Shown here: in pieces, positions 473 to 39,500 of the stretch
How positions within the stretch are numbered: the stretch's first letter is position 1
Layout of the letters: every line of letters starts with the position of its first letter
DNA from: Anolis carolinensis
Taxonomy: Eukaryota
Direction: 5' to 3'
DNA length: 64,000 nucleotides
NCBI RefSeq assembly: GCF_035594765.1
Contig: NW_026943819.1
Span: 1,178,001-1,242,000, forward strand
Notes under the pieces: generated by a model
The model's database searches: none
Told to the model about the DNA's origin: nothing
Seen by the model: the letters and a program-made list of their open reading frames with translations, nothing else
Position numbers and translations under genes: made by a program

Positions 473-499
473 GTGAGTGGAAGAGGGGCCGAGGCCTAA

Positions 500-1080
500 T
501 GCTGTGGGATGCTGGGAGCTGTAGTTAGTCGTGCTATGGGATTCTGGGTTAGCCATGCTATGGGATGATGGGAGTGGGAGTTGGAGTAGGTCCTGCAGTG
601 GGATGCTGGGTGTTGTAGTTGGTTCTGCAATGGGGCACTGGGTTAGTTGTGCAATGGGGTGCTGGGAGTTGTAGTTAGCTGTGCTATGGGATTCTGGGTT
701 AGCCAAGCTATGGGATGATAGGAGTTGGAGTAGGTCCTGCATTGGGATGCTGGGTTAGTTATGCTATGGGATGCTGGGAGTTGTAGTTGGTTCTGCAATG
801 GAGCACTGGGTTAGTCGTGCAATTGGGTGCTGGGAGTTGTAGTTAGTCATGCTATGGGATTCTGGGTTAGCCATGCAATGGGATGATGGGAGTTGGCGTA
901 GGTCCTGCATTGGGATGCTGGGTTAGTTGCTATGGGATGCTAGGAGTTGTAGTTGGTTCTGTAATGGGGCACTGGGTTAGTTGTACAATGGGGTTCTAGG
1001 AGTTGTAGTTAGTCGTGCTATGGGATTCTGGGAGTTGGAGTAGGTCCTTCAGTGAGATGCTGGGGATGCTGGGAGTGCCC
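500..1080. repeat. Degenerate tandem array (~150-170 bp higher-order period) built from GGGATGCTGGGAGTTGTAGTT and GCTATGGGATTCTGGGTTAG modules
   Basis: GCTGGGAGTTGTAGTT-like motif recurs near 511, 605, 661, 773, 829, 939 and 995. Confidence 0.85.
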
Positions 1081-1335: not shown

Positions 1336-6343
<5,008 letters not shown>

Positions 6344-7129
6344 GCTTTGCTTCTGGAGCCGCCTCTCCTTCTCTGACGTAATGGGGAGCGGGAAGGGGCT
6401 GGGTTTGCGCAGAAGCTCACGGATGCAGGACGGAGCCTTTCCTGTCGCAGCGCGGCCCCTTCCCCTCCCCTGCACTTTGCCAACCACTGCCTTGAATGCA
6501 GCCGGGCAGCAACGTCCTCTCACAAGGAACTGGAATCAATTCCTCGTCCGAAATGAGTGGATGCGAAGCTTGAAAGGACGATGGGAAGCGTGGAGAAGGA
6601 TGTCCCGTGTTGTTCCCGATCTGCTCTTTCCTTCTGAAGGAGTGTTTTGGTTAAAATGGGGCTCCTGCTCTGGACTGAGGCCTTCCTTGGAGCCCCCCTT
6701 GAGTCTCCCTTCATACAGTGCTTCTCTTCACCATCCTTTCGTGGGAGGGAACGAGGAGACCAAGCGGTCACTGCACCTTGAGGGTGGAAGCCGGCCTCTG
6801 TTGCCTTTGGGGGATGTGTTGTGCGGGGATGGGGAGGAGCGCGGACCGCAAAGAGGGAGCGCAGGGCAAGAGACTATAATAAAGTCATGAACGGAAAGAG
6901 AAGATGTCCTTATTCCAGGGAATCTGAGTTCCGTGCCTCCTGTTTGATGTGATGTGTTGGGAGAGGCAACAGTGCTGGGCGGTCCATGCAGCCATGGCCT
7001 TGGAGGCGTCTATGGACAACGCCGGCTCTTCAGCTTAGAAATGTAGGTGAGCGTCACCCCACAGTGTGGGACACCACTGGACTTAACATCAGAGAAAAAC
7101 CTTTACCTGGAAAAGGTTTTAATATTGGT

Positions 7130-7522
7130 AGCCTTTATCTGGCTACCAGTATTAAAAAACTCAAAAATCAAAACAGTAGAAGGGAAGCAACACTCTGAGG
7201 GCAGAGGAGCCCCAAGGACGGCTAATGACTCTGCACAAAGGATGCCCCCAGGCAAGAGAAACCTTTCCAATGCTAATTAGGGTGATTAACTGCAACATTC
7301 ACGCTGGCCTCCAACTGACAAAGAGTTCTTCTCTCACCCTGGACTTCCCACAGATATATATAAACCTTCCTTGCTTAGTTTTTCCATACCTCACAACCTC
7401 TGAGGATGCCTGCCATAGATGTGGGCGAAACGTCAGGAGAGAATACTTCTGGAACATGGCCACACAGCCCGAAAGACATACAACAACCCTGTGATCCCGG
7501 CTATGAAAGCCTTCGACAACAC
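7130..7522 (+). mobile_element. Penelope-like element 3' fragment (related pieces near 1520-1600, 11720-11910, 26200-26440, 49880-50140, 50400-50650)
   Basis: Shared block CTCTGAGGATGCCTGCCATAGATGTGGGCGAAACGTCAGGAGAGAAT...CTGGAACATGGCC recurs across the window. The 50.4 kb copy encodes HREAIERHKH, resembling the C-terminus of Penelope GIY-YIG endonucleases. Family assignment is from memory. Confidence 0.55.
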
Positions 7523-7555
7523 CTTTCCCTTGCTTTGGTTCCACATGCCTGCCTT

Positions 7556-8046
7556 TTGAATTTGGCGCGGTGCTTCTCCATTGGCTGCAGGTGCCAGGGG
7601 AGTGCCGGCAGAGCCAATGGGAGCTCGGGGGTGGGGTCTGCGCCATCCAATAGGGAGCCAGAGCGCTGTCTGCTATTGAAAGCAGCTGGAGTGGCGGTCA
7701 CGAATTTGAGGAACGCCGGCAGGGCCATTAGGAGAGTGGGGCGTGGCCTGCGCTGTCCAATGGGAAGGCAGCGCGGGCTGATACAATTTGGTGCTCTGCT
7801 TCCTCATTGAGGAGGGAGGGAGTACCGGCAGGGCCAATGGGAGTGGGGTGCCCAGTCCGCACCGTCCAATGGAGAGCCACAGCGTGGCGTGCTATTAAAT
7901 GCAGCCGCGTGGGCTTTGGCGTTGACGAATTTGGCGCGCTGCTCACCCATTGGAAGCAGCCGAGTGGGGAACGCTGGCAGGGCCAATGGGAGCGCGGGGC
8001 GGAATCTACGGTGCCCAATGGGGAAGCGGCGCGGGCTGGTATAAAA
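7556..8046 (+). promoter_or_regulatory. Histone promoter made of four tandem E2F/CCAAT/CCAAT/TATA-like modules
   Basis: Proximal module: TTTGGCGCG near 7930, ATTGG 7949, CCAAT 7983 and 8015, TATAAAA 8040-8046. Homologous modules begin near 7559, 7703 and 7785. Confidence 0.85.
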
Positions 8047-8085
8047 GCGGTTTGCGCGGGCTTTGGCTCTCACTTGTCTGAGGCG

Positions 8086-8499
8086 ATGGCGAGCGTGCGC
8101 GGGAGGTCGAGAGGCAAGTCGGGCTCGTCCCGGGCGGGGCTGCAGTTCCCGGTGGGGCGCGTGGGGCGGCTGCTGCGGCGCGGGCGGTACGCGGAGCGCG
8201 TGGGTCGCGGGGCGGCGGTGTACCTGGCGGCGGTGCTGGAGTACCTGGCGGCGGAGCTGCTGGAGCTGGCCGGGGAGGCGGCGCGCGCCCACCGCAAGGC
8301 CCGCATCGCCCCGCGGCACCTGGCCCTGGCCGCCCGCAACGACGAGGAGCTCTCCCGCCTCCTCCGCACCGTCACCTTCGCCCAGGGCGGCGTCCTGCCC
8401 CACCTCCACGCCGCCCTCCTCCCGCGCGGGAAGGAGAACAAGGAGGAGAAGAAGGCCAAGGCCCCGCTCAAGGCCAGCCAGGCCTCGCAGGAGTACTAG
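8086..8499 (+). CDS. H2AX: Intronless histone H2A variant with SQEY C-terminus; divergent H2AX orthologue (137 aa)
   Basis: H2A fold ([36 protein letters not shown]), terminal [12 protein letters not shown] box 46 nt upstream, and syntenic position between DPAGT1 and HMBS. ATTAAA at 8763 is followed by a U/GU-rich tract. Confidence 0.9.
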
Positions 8500-9126
8500 G
8501 CCCGGCCCGGCACACCCGCCAAAGGACTCGGAGGCGTCTCTTCTTCCCTTCTGACCATCTGGAGTCGAGTCGTGGAGTGCGAGGCCCCAACACTTCCGGC
8601 TTGAAGGGACTGGACTTACTTTTGGGACTGGAGGCGCCGCTTGCAACTTCCGCTCCTTCATTCAAGGCTTTGTGGAAGACCAGGCCCCCAACACTTCCGG
8701 GAAACTTGCTGTGGACACTTCCAAGGGACTGCACTGTCTTTGGGGACTTCACTCTCTCACTCATTAAAGGTTTCTTTTTAGTTTTTTGAACATCTCGTGT
8801 TTTGTCTTGAGTGGGGGGGGTCGCTTCCGGTTCCGTTGACCACATTCTCATCGTACTTCCGGTTGCAGATTGTACGGGGAGAGTCTTTCCTTGGGAAGAA
8901 GGACCTCCTTCCCAAACGCTGGTCTAACCGCTTTTGTGGGCTTTTTGGAATTCCTGGCCACTGGGAGTTCAAAATTTCCCTTCCAAGTCTAGAATGTAAA
9001 TTTATATGCCACTTTATCTCCATGCCACTTAAATTAAAATTTACAAGTTTGTACAATCACATATATACAGGTATATTATACACTATATTACAATATTTTT
9101 ATAAATTATATATTGTATTGCTATTA

Positions 9127-9449
9127 CAGTAGAGTCTCACTTATCCAAGCTAAACGGGCCGGCAGAAGCTTGGATAAGCGAATATCTTGGATAACAAGGA
9201 GAGATTAAGAAAAAGCCTATTAAACATCAAATTAGGTTATGATTTTACAAATTAAGCACCAAAACTTCATGTTATACAACAAATTTGACAGAAAAAGCAG
9301 TTCAATACGCAGTAATGCTACGTAGTAATTACTGTATTTACGAATTTAGCACCAAAATATCATGATATATTGAAAACATTGACTACAAAAATGGCTTGGA
9401 TTATCCAGAGGCTTGGATAAGCGAGGCTTGGATTAGTGAGACTCTACAG
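9127..9449. mobile_element. Tc1/mariner-type MITE (~320 bp, TIR CAGTAGAGTCTCACTTATCC, TA flanks); further copies at 12915-13237, 19191-19513, 21032-21354, 23033-23320 (truncated), 28987-29307, 35182-35495, 45190-45480, 48889-49843, 52975-53285, 59937-60419
   Basis: Terminal inverted repeats flanked by TA, and near-identical internal sequence in 11 copies. Confidence 0.9.
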
Positions 9450-10269
9450 TATATTGTATTAAATTATAATATCAATATTGTATGTATATGTTACACCATT
9501 AGCATAGAACACTTATTATTTCATGTCTGAAACAACTTGAGAAACAGCAAGTTGCTTCTGGTGTGAGAGAATTGGCCATCTGCAAGGACGTTCCCTGGAT
9601 GTTTTGACGTTTTATCATCTTTGTGGGAGAACTCTTGTGCCCCCGCAATGGGGAGCTGGAACTGATCTGTACTCATTGGATTCGAAACAAAGACCTCCAG
9701 GTTTGGCCCCTTGCACCACCAGGGGGAAAGGAACCTGAGGCTGTTAAGAATTGTGGGAGTTGAAGTCCAAAACACCTGGAGGACTGAAGTTTGCCCATGC
9801 CTGCTTTAGGATAATCTTACGGAGGTAAATTTGATAAAAATAGGGTTGATTAATAAAATAAATCCTTAAAATCTGCAATTCTCAAGAGCTCCCTTCCATA
9901 TGTCTGCTCCTCAGCTCCAAGGAGCATACAAGAGTTTGCTTTGGCTCCATTTGGGCATCCAATACAAACCTCAACCACCGCTCTCTATCGTAAATCTCTT
10001 TAATCGTTTATATATATTATGCAGCTGCATACATTAAGACACTTGATTCTATGCAATAAACCCCCCTTCGTTGCCTGCATTTAAAAAACTTCAAATGGAG
10101 GCCTGCGAAAGGATCTTCCGACGGCACCAACTAGTTAAATGCTGGACTACAACACCCAGCATTCCTCCTCAGCCTTGACCCTGGCGGGCGCTGCAGTCCC
10201 ACCCCAGGGGTGTCGTGATGCCTTGGGATCCAGAGGCAATGGAGATGCATTGCCAAGTCCTGAAGGGCC

Positions 10270-13200
10270 TCAGGCGGCGTTGAGTTGTCGGGCGGCATCC
10301 AGGATGGGCCGGGCCCCTTGGCTCAGCAGCAGTGCGGCCAGATCCAGGCCCAGCTTCTCGGCCGCCGCTTGTGCCGCGCGAGGCTCCGTCCGGGCCATGA
10401 TGCCCAAGTGCTGGATGTTGTCGTCGGGACCCTCCTCGTCCTGACCACGATACAAGACCGCCGTTGGCACATATATTATGAGGCACAGATGACAACACAT
10501 GCACGCAAGATTAAAACCCATACTAAAATCCTTACTAATAAAATGTCGACTTAACATTGATAGTGATTTGGATGGCATTGGCCAAGTCACGCTCTCTCAG
10601 CCTCAAGGGGAAGCCAACCCCAACCAACCTTTACCATGGTTTTCTTTTCTGAAGTTCGTTCCCAGGAGGTTTACCAACTGCCTTTCTCTGAGGCTGAGTG
10701 TTAGTTGGCCAAGCTGTTTCCTTTTTTGGGCGAGTAGAACTCACCTCCATTGGGAATTTCACGTTTGTCTGCATGGTCTCGCACAAGCTCTCCGATCCGT
10801 CGAGGCTGTAGACGGCTCCGGTCAAATATAACTGGGGAAAGCCAAGCAGAGGGAGGCTGATGCAGGGAAAGGCAAGGGTCACACACTGGGGGTCCCAGAG
10901 AGTGGCTAAAGCCTGGCAAAAGGCCTCACCACCTACTGCAGCCACTGACCAGGCTGCCCCATTATTATTATTATTTTATTATGACAGCAAACAAGATAGA
11001 TATGCTGGATTTCATATCACAAATCACAAGTCAAACACTTCCCAAGTGTCTAGGACTGTGTGATGTATTTTCGGATGATGCGTGCAGATCCCAGCAGGGT
11101 GGCCTTTTGCAGTTGGCAGATCGTTATTATTATTATTATTATTACTACTACTATGTTGTTGTTGTTGGAAGGCTTTCATGGCTGGGATCACAGGGTTGTT
11201 GTATGTCTTTCGGGCTGTGTGGCCATGTTCCAGAAGTATTCTCTCCTGCTCGGGGGTCGCATTATTATTATATTTATTCTACATTACTATTTACCACTAG
11301 CTGCAACTACTGAACAGACTGCCCTATTATTAATACATATTATTATTATTGTTATAGATTATTATAAATTATTAGCATTATTTATTATCATCTTTGTTTC
11401 TAGCCTTACCTGGGAGTCCTTCAGCGTGGTGCTCACTGCCACAGGGACACTGCAGCCGCCCTCCTGCAAAGGAAAGTGAAGGGAGATCACTCAATGCTCC
11501 TTCCTTCCTCCCTTCTTTCCTTCCAGCCCTGGACTCACCAAGTGCTTCATGAAGGCCCGCTCCGCAATGCAGCGCAGCACGGTTTCCCCGTCATGCAGGA
11601 CGGACACCATCTCTAGGATCTCCTGGTCCCTGGCTCTCACTTCCACGGCTAATGCGCCCTGGAGAGAGAAAGGGGAAAAAGATTTGACATAAACATTAGG
11701 AATAATAATAGTAATGTGTTGTCAAAGGCTTTCATGGCTGGAATCACTGGGATGCTGTGAATTTTCCGGGCTGTATGGCTATTTTCCATAAGTATTTCCT
11801 CCTGACACTTCGCCCACAACCTCTGAGGATGACTGCCATAGATGTGGACAAAGCATCAGGAGAAAATGCTTCTGGAACATGGCCATACAGCCCGGAAAAC
11901 TCACAGCAACCCAATAATAATACTTTATTTTTAACCTGCCCTCTCTCCCTGAAGGGACTCAGGGCAGCTTCCAAAAACAATGATGGCAAACATCCAATGC
12001 CATATGCAATGACAGCAATAATGCCAGTGCCCCCCATTTCGTAATGACTTTTGAACCATTTTTTAAAATGGATTGCGCATCGCTACCACACAAACCTGTC
12101 CAACAGCATAGAGGCACTCCATGGGAGTCAGAATCTGGAAGGAAGGAAGCGAAGGGAGGTCAGTCTGGACGGGGAACGAGAGCCCAGTTGCAGACAGGCG
12201 GATGGACAAATCCCTTCTCCCCGCTCACCTGGCCAATGCGGTCCTCCCAGCCCATGCGCCGCAGGCCGGCCGTGGCCAGAACGATGGCGCTGAAGTCGTC
12301 CTTCTCGTCCAGCTTCTTCAAGCGGGTGTTCAGGTTGCCCCTCTGTGCAGGCGGCCCGTTAGGGAAAATGAGCCTTTCCAGGGCAGACCATGCTCTAATC
12401 TATTTATTTCTATCCTGCTTTTCTCCCAGATCGGGACTCAAAGCAAAATGTGCAATGGCAGGATGTTCCTCCTTACAGTTTAACAAACTTTTCCCAGGTT
12501 TTTATGATAGAACCAATTAGGAAATGATATTTATAACCCAGGAACAAAAACCGTGTTACATAGTACAACAACAATAATAATAATAAGCATAGTATTAGTA
12601 ATGTCCTCTTGCCTAAGAAGGTAATTCTCCACCACCTATAATGTGCTTCAAAGCAGCGTCTTTGAGCAAAAGAAAAGATACGATGTCCTTGAACTGCAGC
12701 TGCGGGAAGGCCCTCTTCAGCTGAGCCGCCCGGCGAAGGGAGCTGGTCCCAATCACACTGCGGAAGAGACCAAAGAAAGAAGGCGGGCAGATATCAGCTT
12801 GGCTCTGTGTTTGTGGAGGAATACTCCACCTGCAAGGCTCCTCTCTTTTTTAAAAATACATTGCATTTGGGATACAAAATATAAAAAGGAGAAACATCTA
12901 GAGATAAACAAATACAGTAGAGTCTCACTTATCCAAGCTAAATGGGCCGGCAGAAGCTTGGATAAGCGAATAACTTGGATAATAAGGAGGGATTAAGGAA
13001 AAGCCTATTAAACATCAAATTAGGTTATGATTTTACAAATTAAGAACCAAAATATCATGTTATACAACAAATTTGACAGAAAAAGTAGTTCAATCCGCAG
13101 TAATGTTATGTTGTAATTACTCTATCTACGAATTTAGCACCAAAATATCACGATGTATTGAAAACATTGACTACAAAAATGGCTTGGATTATCCAGAGGC

Positions 13201-16200
13201 TTGGATAAGCGAGGTTTGGATAAGAGAGACTCTACTGTATATCTAATCCAAAAACGTTGTTTCCCCAAACAAATACATTGCAATATCCTATCCAATCTTT
13301 CCCTTCCCGTGAACGTATCCATCCATGACTTCCAACACTGCTCACTGTGAGTCCCATGTCTCATAAACTCTACCCAAAATTCAAATTCAATAGCTTGGCC
13401 ATTTGAACATATTCAAATAACTTTTCACTCCAATTCTTTTTAGATGGATCTGCTTCACCTTTCCATGCTGCTGTTATTGTCGGTCTAGCTGCAACAAAGC
13501 CATATTGATACATGTCCTCGTCTCCTTTGATAATTCTCTCTCTATAACCCTAAAAGGCTCACCTTTTATCTGGGAGGCTGCTGAGCGTTTTGCCGACGTG
13601 CTTCGGGTGAAAGACAACAGCGTCGTGCGGGTTTTCCCTCCTGCGAAGGAAGGACAACAAAGACGGGCAGTTTCAAGGGCAAAGGCCATGTTTTTCTCAG
13701 GCTACAGTCCCCAGAAATGCTGGGAGTTGCAGTTCTCACAAGGAGCAGAACCAAGTCTTATCTGGAGGGAAAAGGGAAATCGGGAGGCCCAGGAGATGGA
13801 CACGGAACAAAAGACCCTCCCCGACATATTTGGTGTAGTTGGCAGTGAAGACAGAGTCTGTCCAGGGCACTCACTTGCAGACGGCTCCGATGGTGAATCC
13901 AGGCGGGAGAGAGGTGGGCAGGTCCTTCAGGGAGTGGACCACCAAGTCAACCCTGCAATCGGAGGAGGAAGACATTGCAGATGGACAATATGGAGACGGA
14001 AGGCAGCACCACATAGAGCCCAATGGGGCCAAAGGAAGAGGAGGAGGCAGGTGCCAATCTCAAAGGTGTGGCCGGGATCGAATCCAGCTCAGTTTCCCAA
14101 TCTGCCCAGGTCAGCCGTGCAGGAAAGTAGCCCATGTCCCTCCGGGAAAAGCATGACCTACATTCATTGTGTCAGTGAATTATAATCCCCGGTGTGTATC
14201 TGTGATAGGGATTTTAATAGGGCTTGTTTTTATCTCGCTGTTTGGACTATGCTGTGAGGCTGCAAGGAGAGATGGTCAAGTCCATATTATTCCTGGAGCT
14301 GCGTGAAATCTTGGGCCGATGTCAATCCTAGTAAAGAAATTCAGTCTCCAAGATAACAGCTTCTATATCCAAAGAAATTCTTCGTATGATATGCAATGCC
14401 AAGACTGGTACAAAACAAGGTCTCCAAAAGAATTTCTTTGAAAATAGAAGCTGTTATCTTGGAGACTGAATTTCTTCACTACGATTGACATCAGCCCAAG
14501 ATTTCACACAGCTCCAGGAATAATATGGACTTGGTTGTCTCTTTATGTCTGTTATTTACTCCTTGAACATTATATCCTTTGTTGGATTATGACATGGAAA
14601 CTGTAACTTTACTTTTGATATTCTGAAAGTAATTTCTTTATATGTAATATAGTTTGAAGTAACTTACTCTCATGTAAAGTTGTAGAAACCAGGTTTGTGT
14701 TACACTCCTTGTGAGTATATACACATACATTATTGTTTTGTGTTGTTATAGATATGTGTGCATTACCCGCAAGGAGAGGTGGGTCATCTACATCTATATC
14801 TATCTATATCTATAATAAAAAGTCAGTGTTTCTTGGTATGTTTGTTTGTATGTATGTATGCAGGTGCTGGTGTATTTTTTTGGCCAGGGCTCCGACTTCC
14901 AGAGACGACGGAAATCCCCACAAATGAGGGACCTGGATGAAATTTGGCAAATGGACCAGCCTCCCCCCGGTGACCCACTTTACGTCTTGGTGCAATTTGG
15001 GGGAGGATGGACCATGGACGATGGGATTTGCAGTACCTTCACCAGCCTGTAATGGGTCCATTCATAACATCCAAAAACAAACAAGCAATGCCTTTTTCAA
15101 ATAACCTAGGAACCCAAGCTAGTAAATAAATAAATACATGATGGTGATGATGATTAAAGGGGAGGGGACTTTGGATCCCAGGTGCAGATCACTCACTCGT
15201 TCCTTTCCAAGGCGTTTTCCAGCTCTTTGGTGAAGAGGCTTTTCTCTCCGATCTGGGACGGGAAAGAGGAGACTACGGTCAGGGCTGCGTTTGCCCAAAT
15301 GAAAAGGGAGGGAGGGAGTTGCAAAGGGAACGTGGCTCACCTTGGACAGTGCGGTGTCCAGGATCTTGTCTCCCGTGGTTGTCATGCCGACTGCGGACGG
15401 GGAAGGAAAAGCAAAGCATCATTAGGTCAAGAGGCCAAGGCGGTCAAAGGCTACGAGGAAAGGGCCAAAGGGGAAAAGCAAAGGCACACTCACTGATCTC
15501 GAAGTGCAGCTGAGGATGGTGCTTCTGCAGCATCTCCACCACGCTGTCCGTCTGGATACGGGCCAGCTGCAAAAAAGGCCCAGATCAATATATATCATTT
15601 AGAGTCCTTCCCGTATCCGATGCAATCGGTAACAACATTAACTGCATATTTGGAGTCAATTGGGGTAAACTGTAGGGATATTGGATCTGGATCTTGATAA
15701 CAGCTTGTTAACACCTTGATTACTTTAACTTGGGTTGTAATGTGGGTTGTATGCTGTGTGAGTGTGTGTCAAGTGTATTGATATGGCTAATGTGGTAATA
15801 AATAAAATGAATTGTCTATTGTATTGTCTGTAATAAAATAATAACACTATTTAACATGTTCTTGGCTGCCCATACACACCATAAATAATAATAATAATAG
15901 TAATAATAATATGCAACATACTGAATATACTCGAGTATAAGCCTAGTTTTTCAGCCCTTTTTAGGGCTGAAAAAGCTCCCCTCGGCTTATACTCGAGTGA
16001 GAGTCCTGGCCGGCTTCTATTCAGGTCGGCTTATACTTGAGTATATAGGTATTCAGAGTTGGACAGTCTTATCTTATTAAAGTCTTATTATTATCTTAAA
16101 TTACAGTTTTATATAAATATTCAAAAACATTTAACCTACTGATGCCTCAAATCATGCAATTTTATTAATATCTATTTTTATTTTTGAATTTGACCTGTAG

Positions 16201-34500: not shown

Positions 34501-36219
34501 CACAACATAATAATAATATAATATTAATTTTATTTTTATACCCCGCCCCATCTCCCTGAAGGCACTCGGGGTGGCTTACATGGGGCCAAGCCCAGGTCAC
34601 AAACAATATAAAAACATAACAATAAAACAATCAATCAACAATAAAACAAGCCATACGTCAAGATACAATAAATATACTATGATAAAATCCTGGGTCGGCT
34701 CTAAAAAAAGAACTGGGCCAAAAAAGTGCAATTAGTGTCAGATTCAATCAGGGTGAGGTAGATCCCAGAACTATTGTCCCGTTAAAGTGCTGGCAAAGGC
34801 ATACACTATGGCCTGCTAAAGGAACAAGGTATAATAAATAAGATAGGCAACAGGTCAATCCGTTACTATGGAGATCAGTCACCAAAGGCCTGTTGGAAGA
34901 GCCAAGTTTTCAGGCTCTTCAGGCCAAGTATTCAGGCTCTTTTCAGTCTCCAAATAGGCCAAAAAGCCCTGCTTGTGCTTTTTTATCAAAACAAATCTAC
35001 GTTTTTTAGAGTTATTACATCAAGCTGAACAAGTTAAGGTAGTAGGGATGCAGGACACATGCATTATTCTATTTATTTATTTATTTCCAATATTTATATC
35101 CTGCCCTTCTCACCCGAAGGGGCTCAGGGCGGATTACAACACTGGCACAATTAGATGCCTATACAAAATCAATCAACAATACAGTAGAGTCTCACTTATC
35201 CAACATAAACGGGCCAGCAGAAGCTTGGATAAGCGAATATCTTGTATAATAAGGAGGGATTAAGGAAATGCCTATTAAACATCAAATTAGGTTATGATTT
35301 TACAAATTAAGCACCAAAACATCATGTTATACAACAAATTTGACAGAAAAAGTAGTTCAATACGCAGTAATGTTATGTTGTAATTACTGTGTTTATGAAT
35401 TTAGCACCAAAATGTCACGATACATTGACTACAAAAATGGCTTGGATAATCCAGAGGCTTGGATAAGCGAGGCTTGGATTAGTGAGACTCTACTGTATTT
35501 ATTTCCAATATTTATATCCTGCCCTTTTCACCCGAAGGGACTCAGGGTGGCTTACAACCCTGGCATAATTAGATGCCTATACAAAATCAATCAACAATAC
35601 ATAAAATCTGTTCAAACAATTAAAATACAATATAAAATTACAGTATATAATTTTTAAAAATACATATGCTCAGATCCATTCATCCGAAAACCTCGTGCCC
35701 TATCCATAGGTCAGTCTGTGTCATTCTTATCGTTTATTCGTTAAAAGCCTTTGGGAAGAACATATCTGATGTCATCATACTTCTAGACTACTTCACCATA
35801 TACAAAAGATAACTAGAGCAGTGCTCATCTCACTCAGGCCTGAAATCTTTATTCTGCAGTACTCCCATGCCATTAGTTTTAATAATAATAGCATTTTAAA
35901 GAAAACCAAGCAACCTGTGGTGCTTAGAAAATTAAATCATGGATGAGCGCAGTTTTAAAACTTTAACCAGATTTCAATGGCTTCTCTGTTGAGTCTGACA
36001 AGGGCCAGCTAACACCTCCCAACAGAGGATTTCCCCAGGCAGGAAGCAGCCAGGCCTTGAAACTGCCGGGCTAAGGATATCCCCGAAGACGAGGCTCCCC
36101 CTCCCGGCGTCGCAGGCGGAGATGCCCGGCGGGAGGAGGAGCGGCCTTCCCTCGGCGTCGGCGGCCAGCGTCTCCCGGTCGAAGAAGGCGAAGCGCCGCC
36201 ACTGCAGGTACGCCGCCAT
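25520..36219 (-). CDS. VPS11: Vacuolar protein sorting 11 (HOPS/CORVET core subunit; 16 exons, 924 aa)
   Basis: Exons (minus strand) 36081-36219, 34331-34479, 33631-33766, 33199-33362, 32857-33104, 32159-32360, 31799-31950, 30790-30976, 30017-30160, 29641-29829, 28315-28476, 27989-28128, 27187-27389, 26686-26857, 25794-26016, 25520-25684. MAAYLQWRRF start, [51 protein letters not shown]...CPTC. Confidence 0.97.
31951..32158 (-). other. VPS11: GC-AG intron in VPS11
   Basis: Junction TKLE|MLFKK requires the donor GAG|GCAAGG; acceptor TTCCTAACAG|ATG. Confidence 0.85.
34125..34258. mobile_element. Palindromic hAT-like MITE (TIR CAGGCATGGGCAAAC); related copies ~23370-23552, 25200-25395, 50989-51121, half copies ~9735-9803, 33547-33610, 44997-45090, 46755-46830, 48262-48506
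   Basis: Almost perfect 134-bp hairpin CAGGCATGGG...CCCATGCCTG. Confidence 0.85.
34480..36080 (-). other. VPS11: U12-type AT-AC intron 1 of VPS11
   Basis: Donor ATATCCTTAG, branch site TCCTTAAC (34493-34500), acceptor CCCAC|; splicing restores the reading VFG-D-MEG. Confidence 0.93.
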
Positions 36220-36568
36220 CTTGGCCGGAGAGAAACAAAACACAGCCACTTCCGGCCCGGCGGCGCGTCACTTCCGCTCAAGACGAAGCGTTGTAGTTCG
36301 CTCTGACACGCCCCCTTTCCTCGTGCGGAGACGGGAGAGAAGATCCCGCCCACTGCTTGCGGCCAGCCAATGGCGTGCCCGCAGCTGCCGGCAACCTGGG
36401 ACGTGGCCCAATGGCGGGTAAGGGAAGGCGGGGCTTTCTCCGGGCGGGCCAATGAGCGGGCGCCGCGTCCTTGAGGCTTTTCCGCCGGTCGGGAGAACAT
36501 AGGGGAGCTTCTCTGTGGATCCGAGCGGGAAGAAGGAGGCCGAGGAAGGGAAGAAGGAAGGCTCCGGG
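36220..36568. promoter_or_regulatory. Bidirectional VPS11/HYOU1 promoter with ER-stress elements
   Basis: CGTGG-C-CCAAT at 36402-36412 (reverse ERSE-II), CCAAT-N9-CCGCG at 36449-36467 (ERSE with one mismatch), extra CCAAT at 36367, ETS motifs CACTTCCGG and CGTCACTTCCG near the VPS11 start, GC boxes. Confidence 0.85.
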
Positions 36569-39500
36569 ATGAGGCTCCTACTGCTGCTGCTGGCCCTGCT
36601 GCTTCTAGCGGGCCTTTCCGGTCAGTCTGGGGGGTCCCCGGCCTGGAGGGAGCGCTTCCGGGTTAAAATCCCACATTCTCTGCTTTGAACCGGATTATAT
36701 GGCAGTGTGGACTCAGATAACCCGGTTCAAAGCAGATCTCGTGAATGGTCTGCCTTGATATTCGTGATTATATAGCTGTGTAGAAGGGCCCTGAATGAAT
36801 CCCCTTTGACACTTGCCATTTCAAGTCCAGATTATCTGCTTTGAACCAGATTATATCTCTGTGTGGACTCATGCAATCTGGTTCAAAGCAAATAATGTGG
36901 ATTATCGCCCTTGATATTCTGGGTTATATGGCTGTGTGGAAAGGCCCTCATAGAATCCATTTCAAAGCACATAATGTGGATGATCTGCCTTGATAATCTG
37001 GATTATATGGCAGTGTGGACTCAGATAACCAGGTTCAAAGCAGATCTTGTGAATAGTCTACCTTGATATTCGGGATTATATAGCTGTGTAGAAGGGCCCT
37101 GAATGAATCCCCTTTGACACTTGCCATTTAAAATCGAGATTATCTGTTTTGAACCAGATTATATCACTGTGTGGACTCATATAATCCATTTCAAAGCACA
37201 TAATGTGGATGATCTGCCTTGATAATCTGGATTATATGGCAGTGTAGAAGGGGCCCATCTCTAAAAGCCACATTATTTGTAGCATAGAATCACATTGGCC
37301 TTATTCGCCGTCACATCACACTCCTGAGGCTGGATCCTCACTGCTTTATATCCCAGGATCTGATTGCAGATTATCTGGCAGTGTAGACTCCTACAACCTG
37401 TTCCCATGCTGATGTGGCCTGGCCTCCCGACACGTGTGGCCTTGTGGAGCTCTTATCTTTCATATCTATTGCTGCGCATGTTGAGGAAGTGTCACTGCAT
37501 TGTGCAAGGAATGCTCTACCCGCTGTTGTCATGGAGCGGCACAATGATTTTAACTTTGCATTTGAAAGAACCTTGAAGGCATTTTCCACCTTTTGAGAAG
37601 CCACATGTTCAGAAGCAAGAGCACCAAGGCTTTCCCTTAACAGTGCAAGGCCCTTCTGGAATGCTTAATGTCTGGAACGTGACATATTGTATATTCTCAA
37701 TTGGTTGTCCGTCTTTTTCTGAGTTCTTGAAACCCATTATTGGAATGAGAGGGTTGCTCCGTGACGTCACGTAATGCCGAGATGCTTCTGACACATTTAA
37801 CTCCGTGCTTCTGTCCTACAGATTCCCTGGCGGTGATGTCAGTGGACTTGGGCAGTGAATCTATGAAGATCGCCATCGTCAAGCCTGGGGTGCCCATGGA
37901 GATTGTCTTAAACAAGTGAGTGGGCCTGCAGCAACGCTGTCTTGGAACCTGGTGCATCTTAATTAATTGTACCAGGGAATGCACTTAATTGAGATGGGAA
38001 AAATGGAAGAGATTCGAGACATGAACGAATTAACTTTTTTATTAAAAGTACATAGGGGTCAGTCAATAAAAAAGACAGACTGGACTTTATATAGAGAATA
38101 TGTGAACAATCAGTAAGAAACAAGCCTTAAAATTGAAGACTCAGATAGACAATAATAGAGCAACCAGGACTATAAAAATTAAAAATAAATAAATTCAAGG
38201 TCCCGCGAAGGAAGGATGAAAGACTAAATAGTGTCTATCCCCGCATTTTGTGTGAGTGTGGGGGTGTTTTTTTCTTCTCTTTTCTCTTTTTGTTTCCTTT
38301 CCCCTTCACCTCCATTTACCCTGGATCCGATTTTGCCCCTCCCCCATTTTATGTATAATATATTATGTATAATGTCTTGTTTGTGGAAAACTTCAATAAA
38401 AATTACTTTAAAAAATTGAGATGGGAATTCACAGCAGAGTGGTAGAGATAGGGCTTTTAACACCGATGGAGCAACCAAGCACCAATTGCACCATCTGATT
38501 CCTAACCATCTCAATTCCTAATTCACTGCGCTGCCAGAGACAACATCAGCTTGCCGTCCTGAAGCTTCATCCATCTCCTCAGACTCTGTAGTCTCACTCA
38601 AGACGAAGTGGGGATGGCGCAGAGACGGGGATCCCTGCCCAGCCTGGAAGATGTGGGTTGCAAATGTGAAAGGAAGGCTTTTCAGTGCCCTTTCCTTTTC
38701 CCTTCAGGGAATCTCGGAGGAAAACCCCGGTGGCTGTGACGCTGAAGGAGAACGAGCGCCTCTTTGGAGACAGCGCTGTGGGAATGGTAAGCCCCAGGAG
38801 TCGCCCACAGTTCAGGCTTTGTGTTATTGTTGTTATTATTGTCGTGTTTATTTATACTCTCCACAAGGAGATGCAAAGTTGGGGTGATTCTAGGGAAGGG
38901 GCTATGCAGTAAGGTTTTTATTTTTCCATAGGGCATCAAGAACCCAAAGGTGGCCTTCCGGTACTTCCAGGACTTGCTGGGCAAACGCATGGATAACCCC
39001 CAGGTGGTCCTTTTCCAGTCACGGTTCCCAGAGCATGAGCTGGTAAAGGATGCGAGGAGGGAGACTGTCACCTTTCACCTGTCAAAGTGAGTGGCCAGTT
39101 TGGGGCTGACCAGGTGTTTTCCCAGAGATAGATACTTTAAGGTGCCTTAAGCATAGGGAACCAGAAAAGGCTTGTTTCGTTTCAATAAATTCCGGTCAGT
39201 AGCACTTAACCGAGCTCTAGCTTTTTATATGATTAGTGTTATAGTTCTCTATTGTTTTAACCTTGTGTCTGGTAAAGAACGGTATACAGTTTAAAAAAGT
39301 GTAGGAATGTATTGTTGAAGGCTGTCAGGGCCAGAATAACTGGGGCGTGGTGTGGTTTCTGGGCTGTATGGCTGTGTTCTAGCAGCATTTTCTCCTGTGA
39401 CTGGCAACTTTAGATCCTCAGATTCCCACACCAGTATAGGAATGCATGAAATGTTGCTCTCAAGAACGTTCTTGGGGCTTTCACAACACACACACAGGCT

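What the first reader, a model, noticed from the sequence alone, without database searches (positions are those of the whole stretch)
7556..8046. H2AX promoter is a dimer-of-dimers: four tandem copies of the E2F-CCAAT-CCAAT-TATA module
Seen: four homologous units beginning AATTTG near 7559, 7703, 7785 and 7928, each with CGGCAG(G/A)GCCA(A/T)T-like sequence, a second CCAAT about 32 bp later, and a TATA-position word (TATTGAAA, GATACAA, TATTAAAT, TATAAAA). Units 1 and 3 share ends (AGCCAGAGCG...TGCTATTGAAAGCAGC vs AGCCACAGCG...TGCTATTAAATGCAGC), as do units 2 and 4 (GGGAAGGCAGCGCGGGCTGATACAA vs GGGAAGCGGCGCGGGCTGGTATAAA). This implies two successive duplications. CCAAT boxes are mostly preserved while spacers diverged, and only the proximal TATA is perfect. 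Roughly 32-bp NF-Y spacing is typical of cell-cycle promoters. Inference: selected amplification of NF-Y/E2F input or alternative start sites, co-evolving with the divergent histone.
Basis: partly seen in the sequence, partly recalled or inferred. Interest (0 to 1): 0.72.

Follow-up and report, generated by a model that had tools for sequence, protein, structure and literature searches.

The report
Fourfold-copied H2AX promoter in anole lizard
The whole core promoter of this lizard's DNA-damage histone gene H2AX sits in four worn tandem copies; the last copy is likely the working promoter, the upstream copies likely add NF-Y binding sites, and the only canonical CHR (a late-cell-cycle control motif) is on the farthest copy.

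Summary
The repeat is real. Four homologous units (7558, 7702, 7784, 7927) lie directly upstream of the syntenic H2AX gene of an anole lizard, and they stay alike when the motifs are masked. The unit is larger than reported: E2F site, reverse CCAAT, two forward CCAAT, TATA and initiator. Only unit 4 is complete. Unit 2 lost 33 bp and is cut inside its TATA; unit 3 lost its E2F site and reverse CCAAT. Dimer-of-dimers is the best history (periods 226/225 bp, RELL 86%) but is not proven. CCAAT cores in units 1-3 changed less than spacers (Poisson p 0.01-0.07), a modest sign of selection. New here: the only canonical CHR, in CHR-4 nt-CDE geometry unique in 64 kb, straddles unit 1's left edge, about 517 bp from the predicted start; human H2AFX is a conserved CHR gene. 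Against anything special: local duplications are common in this genome, 2 of 14 other H2A promoters have them, and units 1-3 are polymorphic. Co-evolution with the histone is unsupported; its 20 core changes are GC-ward, as biased gene conversion would give. No expression or cross-species DNA data were obtained.

The parts
7385..7526 (.). High-copy interspersed repeat end (SINE-like, name recalled), about 30 nt from the array's left edge; more repeat fragments back to about 7000
   Evidence: many copies in the window; very high laid depth over 7000-7522
7555..7570 (+). Canonical CHR TTTGAA (7555-7560), 4-nt spacer, G/C hexamer (CDE on the minus strand), overlapping the E2F site of unit 1
   Evidence: only TTYRAA-N4-CDE composite in 64 kb; only canonical CHR in 7300-8400
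7558..7701 (+). Unit 1 (A type): E2F 7561, reverse CCAAT 7580, CCAAT 7614 and 7647, worn TATA 7674-7681, initiator-like end 7698-7701
7702..7784 (+). Unit 2 (B type): 33-nt deletion removes E2F and reverse CCAAT (the junction makes TTTGAG, a weak CHR variant, at 7705); CCATT 7725, CCAAT 7757; cut inside the TATA position by the second duplication
7784..7926 (+). Unit 3 (A type): broken E2F 7787 and broken reverse CCAAT 7806; CCAAT 7834 and 7866; TATTAAAT 7893 (TATAAAT in another allele); TATA-to-initiator spacing of 32 kept
7927..8075 (+). Unit 4 (B type), the complete proximal promoter: E2F 7930, reverse CCAAT 7949, CCAAT 7983 and 8015, TATAAAA 8040, initiator-like TCACTT with predicted start at 8072
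   Evidence: CpG o/e 0.97 against 0.52-0.79 in units 1-3; one contig without differences over 7967-8100 in run X17
8086..8499 (+). Intronless H2AX coding sequence, 137 aa, ending SQEY, with a divergent core
   Evidence: Pfam, PDB sequences, genome search, alignment and tree
7837..8085 (+). In-frame upstream extension (83 codons) from the ATG inside unit 3's first CCAATGG; likely a chance open frame
   Evidence: held as 220-aa P0003 in the protein collection; chance about 0.06
8763..8768 (+). Candidate poly(A) signal ATTAAA; no histone stem-loop match after the stop

Best explanation
The complete H2AX core promoter is present as four diverged tandem copies, likely made by two successive duplications; unit 4 is predicted to start transcription, and units 1-3 likely act as an upstream NF-Y array, with unit 1 alone keeping the CHR. 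SHOWN: homology beyond motifs; motif state per unit; single copy in the genome; CHR only at unit 1's left edge. INFERRED history: duplication 1 copied from inside the CHR through the initiator (about 144-147 bp), so the proximal copy arose without a CHR. Duplication 2 copied the pair (259 bp, ending inside the proximal TATA at a 2-nt AA microhomology). A 33-nt deletion and point changes then wore down units 2 and 3. INFERRED function: TATA/initiator and E2F input stay with unit 4; extra CCAAT boxes at helical spacing are kept by weak purifying selection and raise or buffer output.
For: Masked-motif similarity beats shuffles in 6 of 6 pairs. The dimer alignment has 169 of 220 identical; U1-U3 76% and U2-U4 77% against 68-73% for cross pairs. 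Topology 13|24 has a positive internal branch, RELL 86%. CCAAT cores on the U1-U3 branches show 2 substitutions where 5.9-8.3 are expected from spacers, p 0.011-0.069. Six of 8 CCAAT copies are intact against 30 of 225 spacer 5-mer comparisons. None of the 15 listed X17 substitutions in the array hits a CCAAT core (p 0.23, not significant). Nine CCAAT per 500 bp is the densest spot of the window. Unit 4 alone has all motifs and no CpG loss. Spacings of 34/32-33 match the published NF-Y preference (PMC3692095, PMC3287175, passages). Mouse H2AX is regulated by E2F and a CCAAT-binding protein (title only, in the reference list of PMC2880410). Human H2AFX has a conserved CHR at -163 and binds DREAM, MMB and FOXM1 (PMC4176359, Table 1 and Table S3 row).
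Against: No expression, start-site, binding or cross-species DNA evidence was obtained. The selection signal is borderline once CpG columns are removed (p 0.045-0.069). The LRT (p 0.001-0.01) overstates it, because the alignment put a gap at U3's broken reverse box; one search counts related copies as independent. U2 lost two boxes and U3 one. U1's E2F/CDE carries a C>T variant at 42% of laid depth in X17. Private changes run S-to-W 31 against W-to-S 8 over the four units, i.e. decay. Local duplications are common: 19 of 128 500-bp windows score 48 or more, 6 of 128 score 90 or more. U1-U4 distance (JC 0.35) is not larger than U1-U3 (0.385) over the 83 shared columns. The human CHR appears to lie in reverse orientation, so positional homology with the lizard CHR is not shown.
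Confidence: 0.55

Rival explanations
1. Units 1-3 are neutral relics: chance tandem duplications in a duplication-prone genome, slowly decaying, with no effect on H2AX; CCAAT retention reflects small numbers and the low mutability of non-CpG words.
For: High base rate of local duplications (19 of 128 windows). TATA, E2F and 3 CCAAT lost upstream. CpG loss and S-to-W drift. All 15 listed X17 substitutions and 2 indels in the array fall upstream of 7967 (p about 0.02). CCAAT test p up to 0.069.
Against: CCAAT cores changed about 3-4 times less than expected. U1, the farthest copy, keeps E2F, all 3 CCAAT and the CHR. 0 of 12 other CpG-rich stretches in the window show such a duplication (best score 38), while 2 of 14 other H2A promoters do.
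Confidence: 0.25
2. Units 1 or 3 are alternative promoters. Their long transcripts carry uORFs (every CCAATGG makes an ATG) and are poorly translated, tuning unit 4 by read-through, or they encode an H2AX with 83 extra N-terminal residues.
For: U3 keeps the 32-nt TATA-to-initiator spacing and has a perfect TATA in X17 alleles. A 220-aa product starting at 7837 is held by NCBI and UniRef, so some gene model starts upstream of unit 4. The two indels of one X17 depth class add up to 3 nt and keep that frame open (worked by hand). uORF layout.
Against: The open frame has about a 6% chance by composition. The A. sagrei protein is annotated without an extension. A second X17 contig shows the 2-nt insertion with no listed compensating change. 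Reference TATA boxes in U1 and U3 are imperfect.
Confidence: 0.13
3. The array was selected to amplify H2AX output in step with the remodelled histone.
For: Both features sit at one gene. The H2AX core has 20 changes in 100 against the consensus of 13 other squamate proteins, 19 identical in A. sagrei.
Against: The amino-acid changes are 13 W-to-S against 2 S-to-W (p 0.004; ancestral codons inferred). The green anole lacks PRDM9 (bioRxiv 2021.06.08.447603, passages), so GC-biased conversion at a CpG island explains the histone without adaptation. Promoter-module duplications also occur at unchanged canonical H2A genes (L006, L008). The two events cannot be dated to one branch here.
Confidence: 0.07

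Closest known systems
Mammalian H2AX (H2AFX) promoter: E2F, CCAAT, CHR
   Same: Same parts: E2F site and CCAAT boxes (Yagi 1995, title only); conserved CHR at -163 with an E2F-type site at -176 in human (PMC4176359 Table S3 row). The lizard CHR would stand at about -148 in single-unit coordinates.
   Different: Here the promoter is fourfold and the CHR is about 517 bp from the predicted start. The human CHR seems reversed relative to the gene (read from the one-letter offset of the two listed words). The human promoter sequence could not be aligned.
NF-Y multi-CCAAT cell-cycle promoters (cyclin B2 type: three CCAAT about 33 bp apart plus CHR)
   Same: Three CCAAT boxes 32-34 bp apart per unit, with a CHR/CDE geometry (PMC3287175, passages).
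   Different: These are usually TATA-less with the CHR within 200 bp of the start (PMC4176359, passages). Here there is a TATA box, no listed CHR within 200 bp, and 9 boxes produced by whole-promoter duplication.
rDNA spacer promoters and promoter-derived enhancer repeats (Xenopus, Drosophila); viral enhancer repeats such as SV40 72-bp (recalled; one search found no passage)
   Same: Upstream, worn copies of the gene promoter that may act as enhancers or secondary starts.
   Different: Those are Pol I or viral, homogenised and variable in number. This is a single-copy Pol II gene with copies about 25-30% diverged.
Promoter-module duplications at other H2A genes of this genome (L006, L008)
   Same: Tandem copies of 120-145 bp CCAAT-bearing modules at 75-79% identity.
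   Different: Two copies only, and the significant repeats there do not include TATA and initiator.

Membership tests
H2AX ortholog (downstream gene) | H2A fold with C-terminal SQ(E/D)Y | tested here: met
   Pfam Histone and Histone_H2A_C; ends ASQEY like PDB H2AX; the only SQEY tail among the H2A frames read from 24 genome matches
H2AX ortholog (downstream gene) | Synteny DPAGT1 -> H2AX <- HMBS (human order recalled) | tested here: met
   PF00953 exon on + at about 2621-3097; PF01379 exons on - at 12223-13954; last exons read
Mammal-type H2AX with dual 3' ends | Histone stem-loop after the stop as well as poly(A) (PMC1198228, passages) | tested here: not met
   no Rfam histone stem-loop match up to E 5 in 6800-9500; ATTAAA at 8763
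Tandem duplication of a whole promoter | Homology extends through spacers, not only motifs | tested here: met
   masked alignments, 6 of 6 pairs above shuffles
Tandem duplication of a whole promoter | Local origin, not a transposon or dispersed repeat | tested here: met
   1 match in the genome, itself (that search can miss diverged copies); no excess laid depth over 7555-8100
Higher-order repeat (dimer of dimers) | Alternate units form clades and share a period | tested here: inconclusive
   periods 226/225, shared indel, 4 vs 1 vs 0-1 sites (p 0.045-0.10), RELL 86%; but U1-U4 distance is no larger than U1-U3
Minisatellite / VNTR | High-identity periodic units | tested here: not met
   not found by TRF at score 30; identities 68-77%
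Minisatellite / VNTR | Copy-number variation between individuals | tested here: inconclusive
   no joint inside the array among the rows shown; 27 joint rows hidden and no contig spans the array
NF-Y multi-CCAAT cell-cycle promoter | Two or more CCAAT boxes about 33 bp apart near the start | tested here: met
   U4 34 and 32; U1 34 and 33; U3 32
NF-Y multi-CCAAT cell-cycle promoter | NF-Y binds and is needed for activity | not testable with these tools
   no binding data
CHR (DREAM/MMB) promoter | One of the ten validated CHR hexamers within about 200 bp of the start | tested here: not met
   only TTTGAA 7555 and TTTGAG 7705 in 7300-8400, 517 and 367 bp from the predicted start 8072; it would be met for a start at the end of unit 1
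CHR (DREAM/MMB) promoter | DREAM/MMB binding and G2/M peak | not testable with these tools
   no ChIP or cell-cycle data for this species
Promoter-derived enhancer repeats (rDNA spacer type; works-like only) | Upstream copies stimulate the gene promoter | not testable with these tools
   needs reporter assays

The most novel reading that the evidence does not exclude
A duplication breakpoint cut the CHR off the working H2AX promoter and split one cell-cycle promoter into two specialised copies: a proximal E2F/NF-Y/TATA copy free of MuvB control, and a distal CHR/E2F/NF-Y copy that acts from 500 bp away or through a long uORF-laden transcript. Anoles would then time H2AX differently from other amniotes, in a PRDM9-less lineage where recombination at this CpG island also drove the histone core 20% away from other lizards. 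This would be subfunctionalisation inside a single promoter, and one case of repeated module duplication in this lizard's histone promoters.
Probability: 0.18. Interest if true: 0.7.

Novelty: new variant of a known kind. Interest (0 to 1): 0.45.

Why it matters
It is a readable fossil of how a vertebrate Pol II promoter gains binding sites: whole-promoter duplication, then uneven loss of TATA, E2F and CCAAT. The four copies are a natural mutagenesis series for asking which motifs are kept when a promoter copy no longer has to start transcription. If the displaced CHR matters, it would test whether CHR elements work beyond 200 bp and whether H2AX cell-cycle control differs in anoles. The linked observation, an H2AX core further from other lizards than fish H2AX is, may matter more for DNA-damage work in this model reptile. 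If units 1-3 are neutral, the finding is an ordinary local duplication.

Tried and rejected
TRF missed the array. A DNA search of the own genome found no other copy. Unit 4 has no significant match upstream of 14 other H2A-like loci (best E 0.89). A scan of metagenome contigs for an H2AX tail motif, meant to fetch another vertebrate's promoter, gave 1 match in an unrelated prokaryote-like contig, L026. The run search listed no RNA holder; this is no evidence on expression. Run X21 (organism B) laid only on the repeat part and X20 had no cover of the array; holes prove nothing. Only 4 of 24 listed runs were laid, only over 7000-8100, as contigs, with 61 difference rows hidden; variation in the coding region stays unknown. 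Convergent clustering of motifs without common descent is rejected. A transposon origin of the units is rejected. Ongoing GC-biased conversion on the array itself is not supported (S-to-W 31, W-to-S 8; this count is biased toward S-to-W in GC-rich DNA). The 155-bp array at 36663-37255 is downstream of a first exon, not a promoter copy. An SSXRD search found no PRDM9 (0 of 40 candidates); there was no positive control, so it is weak. Yagi 1995 and Mantovani 1998 are not held. Paper searches found no report of this array or of anole H2AX (listings and abstract starts only; most subscription journals are not covered). Earlier scan notes held nothing relevant.

Full report
CONTEXT. The gene after the array (8086-8499) encodes a 137-aa intronless H2A ending ASQEY. 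It is the only SQEY-tailed H2A among the frames read from 24 matches in the genome (37 candidates scored). It lies between DPAGT1 (+) and HMBS (-), the human H2AX order (recalled). A G000 histone (L003) is identical to a protein named Anolis carolinensis, so the genome is taken as the green anole. A high-copy repeat ends about 30 nt before the array.

THE OBSERVATION. Four units start at 7558, 7702, 7784 and 7927. Three unit pairs give blastn E values of 1.5e-13 to 2.2e-11 within the window. Pairwise identities are 68-77%. With motif words masked, all 6 pairs still beat shuffles (0-2 of 2000), so the units share descent and are not just a motif cluster. The array matches nothing else in the genome. 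The full unit is E2F (TTTGGCGC), reverse CCAAT 19 nt on, CCAAT 34 nt on, CCAAT 32-33 nt on, TATA 25-27 nt on, and an initiator-like word 32 nt on in U3 and U4 (26 in U1) (the U1 and U2 TATA offsets were re-read, as one search had them 2 nt off). U4 is complete. U1 has all but a good TATA. U2 lacks 33 nt and ends inside TATA. U3 has lost its E2F site and reverse box. Nine of 12 CCAAT pentamers and 2 of 4 E2F sites are intact.

HISTORY (inferred). U1+U2 span 226 bp, and U3+U4 up to TATA span 259 bp, which is 226 plus the 33-nt deletion. The two dimers align at 169 of 220. Informative sites favour (U1,U3)(U2,U4) by 4 to 1 to 0-1 (p 0.045-0.10). A 2-nt indel before TATA agrees. Likelihood gives this tree an internal branch of 0.086 and RELL 86%. 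Against it: over the 83 four-way columns U1-U4 (JC 0.35) is no farther than U1-U3 (0.385), because U3 has the longest branch. The short internal branch suggests that the two duplications were close in time relative to their age. The first junction joins the initiator to the GAA half of the CHR. The second joins the TATA box to the unit start at an AA microhomology.

SELECTION. On the terminal branches of U1-U3, spacers predict 7.5 substitutions in the 40 CCAAT-core sites (5.9 without CpG columns); 2 are seen (p 0.021 and 0.069; 0.011 and 0.045 with half the internal branch). The LRT in the same call (rate ratio 0.11-0.15, p 0.001-0.01) overstates this, since the alignment gapped U3's broken base. 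Six of 8 CCAAT copies match U4, against 30 of 225 spacer 5-mer comparisons (not independent). E2F sites show no significant retention (p 0.15-0.33). One spacer word, GGCAG at 7976, is intact in all four units and may be an unrecognised site. CpG o/e is 0.97 in U4 and 0.52-0.79 upstream.

VARIATION. Four of 24 listed runs were laid on 7000-8100, all as contigs. Run X17 shows 15 substitutions and 2 indels in the array among the rows shown (61 rows hidden). All lie upstream of 7967, and one contig covers 7967-8100 without a difference (p about 0.02). None hits a CCAAT core (p 0.23). One breaks U1's E2F/CDE (42% of depth). A 2-nt insertion gives U3 a perfect TATAAAT in both contigs there; X18 carries the reference allele. 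So the proximal end looks constrained and the upstream part labile.

THE CHR. TTTGAA at 7555-7560 is followed by 4 nt and a G/C hexamer. It is the only TTYRAA-N4-CDE composite in 64 kb, although TTYRAA occurs 96 times. At the same position U2, U3 and U4 read CACGAA, ATACAA and GACGAA. Of the ten validated CHR hexamers (PMC4176359, passages), only 7555 and a TTTGAG made by U2's deletion occur in 7300-8400. [quoted passage not shown] CHRs normally lie within 200 bp of the start, one case at 400 bp. So the lizard's proximal promoter likely lost its CHR at the first duplication. The human element appears reversed, so homology is not shown, and a chance hexamer is possible.

HOW UNUSUAL. Local duplications are common here: 19 of 128 non-overlapping 500-bp windows score 48 or more, 6 score 90 or more; the array scores 102. 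None of 12 other CpG-rich stretches reaches 40. Two of 14 other H2A-like loci have CCAAT-module duplications (L006 score 96, L008 score 48; shuffle maxima 24). The event type is thus recurrent at histone promoters, which lowers the uniqueness of this case.

THE HISTONE. Against the consensus of 13 squamate H2AX-type proteins picked from the 120 listed of 945 hits, the core has 20 changes in 100; 19 are identical in A. sagrei. Other squamates have 0-9 and three fishes 10-11. The stem branch is 0.18 (support 100/100), with near stasis after it. Inferred base changes are 13 W-to-S against 2 S-to-W (p 0.004), and GC3 is 0.986. The green anole lacks PRDM9 while Pogona (0 changes) has it (bioRxiv 2021.06.08.447603, passages; supplements not seen). 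Without PRDM9, recombination targets promoters and CpG islands, and hotspots bring GC-biased conversion and indels (PMC5519329, passages). This offers a non-adaptive common cause for the histone drift and perhaps the duplications (inferred). The array's own drift is toward A/T, so any such hotspot is not evident there now.

COMPARISON. Each unit works like a cyclin-B2-type NF-Y promoter with a TATA box (spacing: PMC3692095 and PMC3287175, passages). The array works like promoter-derived enhancer repeats (recalled) but is not a VNTR. It fails the CHR-promoter test at the predicted start. No paper on this array or on anole H2AX turned up (listings only).

VERDICT. It is a real whole-promoter quadruplication with modest evidence that the upstream CCAAT boxes are still used (0.55), and a testable displaced-CHR hypothesis (0.18). 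New variant of a known kind; interest 0.45.

Noticed in passing
window 8086-8499: Anolis-specific burst in the H2AX core: 20 of 100 positions differ from the squamate consensus, 19 shared with A. sagrei, mostly GC-ward (13:2). The usual SGRGK start is lost. Geckos and Lerista show some of the same changes (N73H, T76A, N110H).
   Followed up: partly
L013 (G000:C3:113412916-113413236, minus strand): A second SQ-tailed H2A, 137 aa ending WSQEF, AT-richer (GC3 0.50), reminiscent of the oocyte H2A.X-F type (name recalled).
   Followed up: no
L006 and L008, 100-420 bp upstream of the ATG; weaker in L005: Tandem duplications of CCAAT or octamer-CCAAT modules in canonical H2A promoters (periods about 141-145 and 122-128 bp). 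L005 looks by eye like an older duplication including its TATA-like box, but is not significant when masked.
   Followed up: partly
window 8580-8770 and to 8870: The H2AX 3' UTR holds a roughly 100-bp degenerate duplication (score 46, shuffle maximum 41) and five ACTTCC words resembling ETS sites; no histone stem-loop was found.
   Followed up: partly
window 7837-8499: A 220-aa N-terminally extended H2AX starting inside unit 3 is held by public protein sources (P0003); probably a gene-model artefact.
   Followed up: partly
window 7824-7828: Run X17 carries CC>TT at 7825-7826, which creates a new reverse CCAAT 10 nt before U3's first forward box: possible site turnover.
   Followed up: no
L002 and L003 (G000:C2 near 29.62-29.63 Mb): Two near-identical 169-aa H2A genes on opposite strands with long Ala/Gly/Pro/Lys C-terminal tails and stem-loops.
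   Followed up: no
window 36200-37255: Bidirectional CpG-island promoter with three CCAAT boxes, the last two 35 nt apart with 9 nt to a CCACG-less GC flank not examined, before a signal-peptide exon; followed by a roughly 155-bp four-copy intronic repeat.
   Followed up: no
window 499-1064, 1760-2552, 20303-23032: Several other local tandem arrays (periods about 110-170 bp), showing that this region duplicates readily.
   Followed up: no
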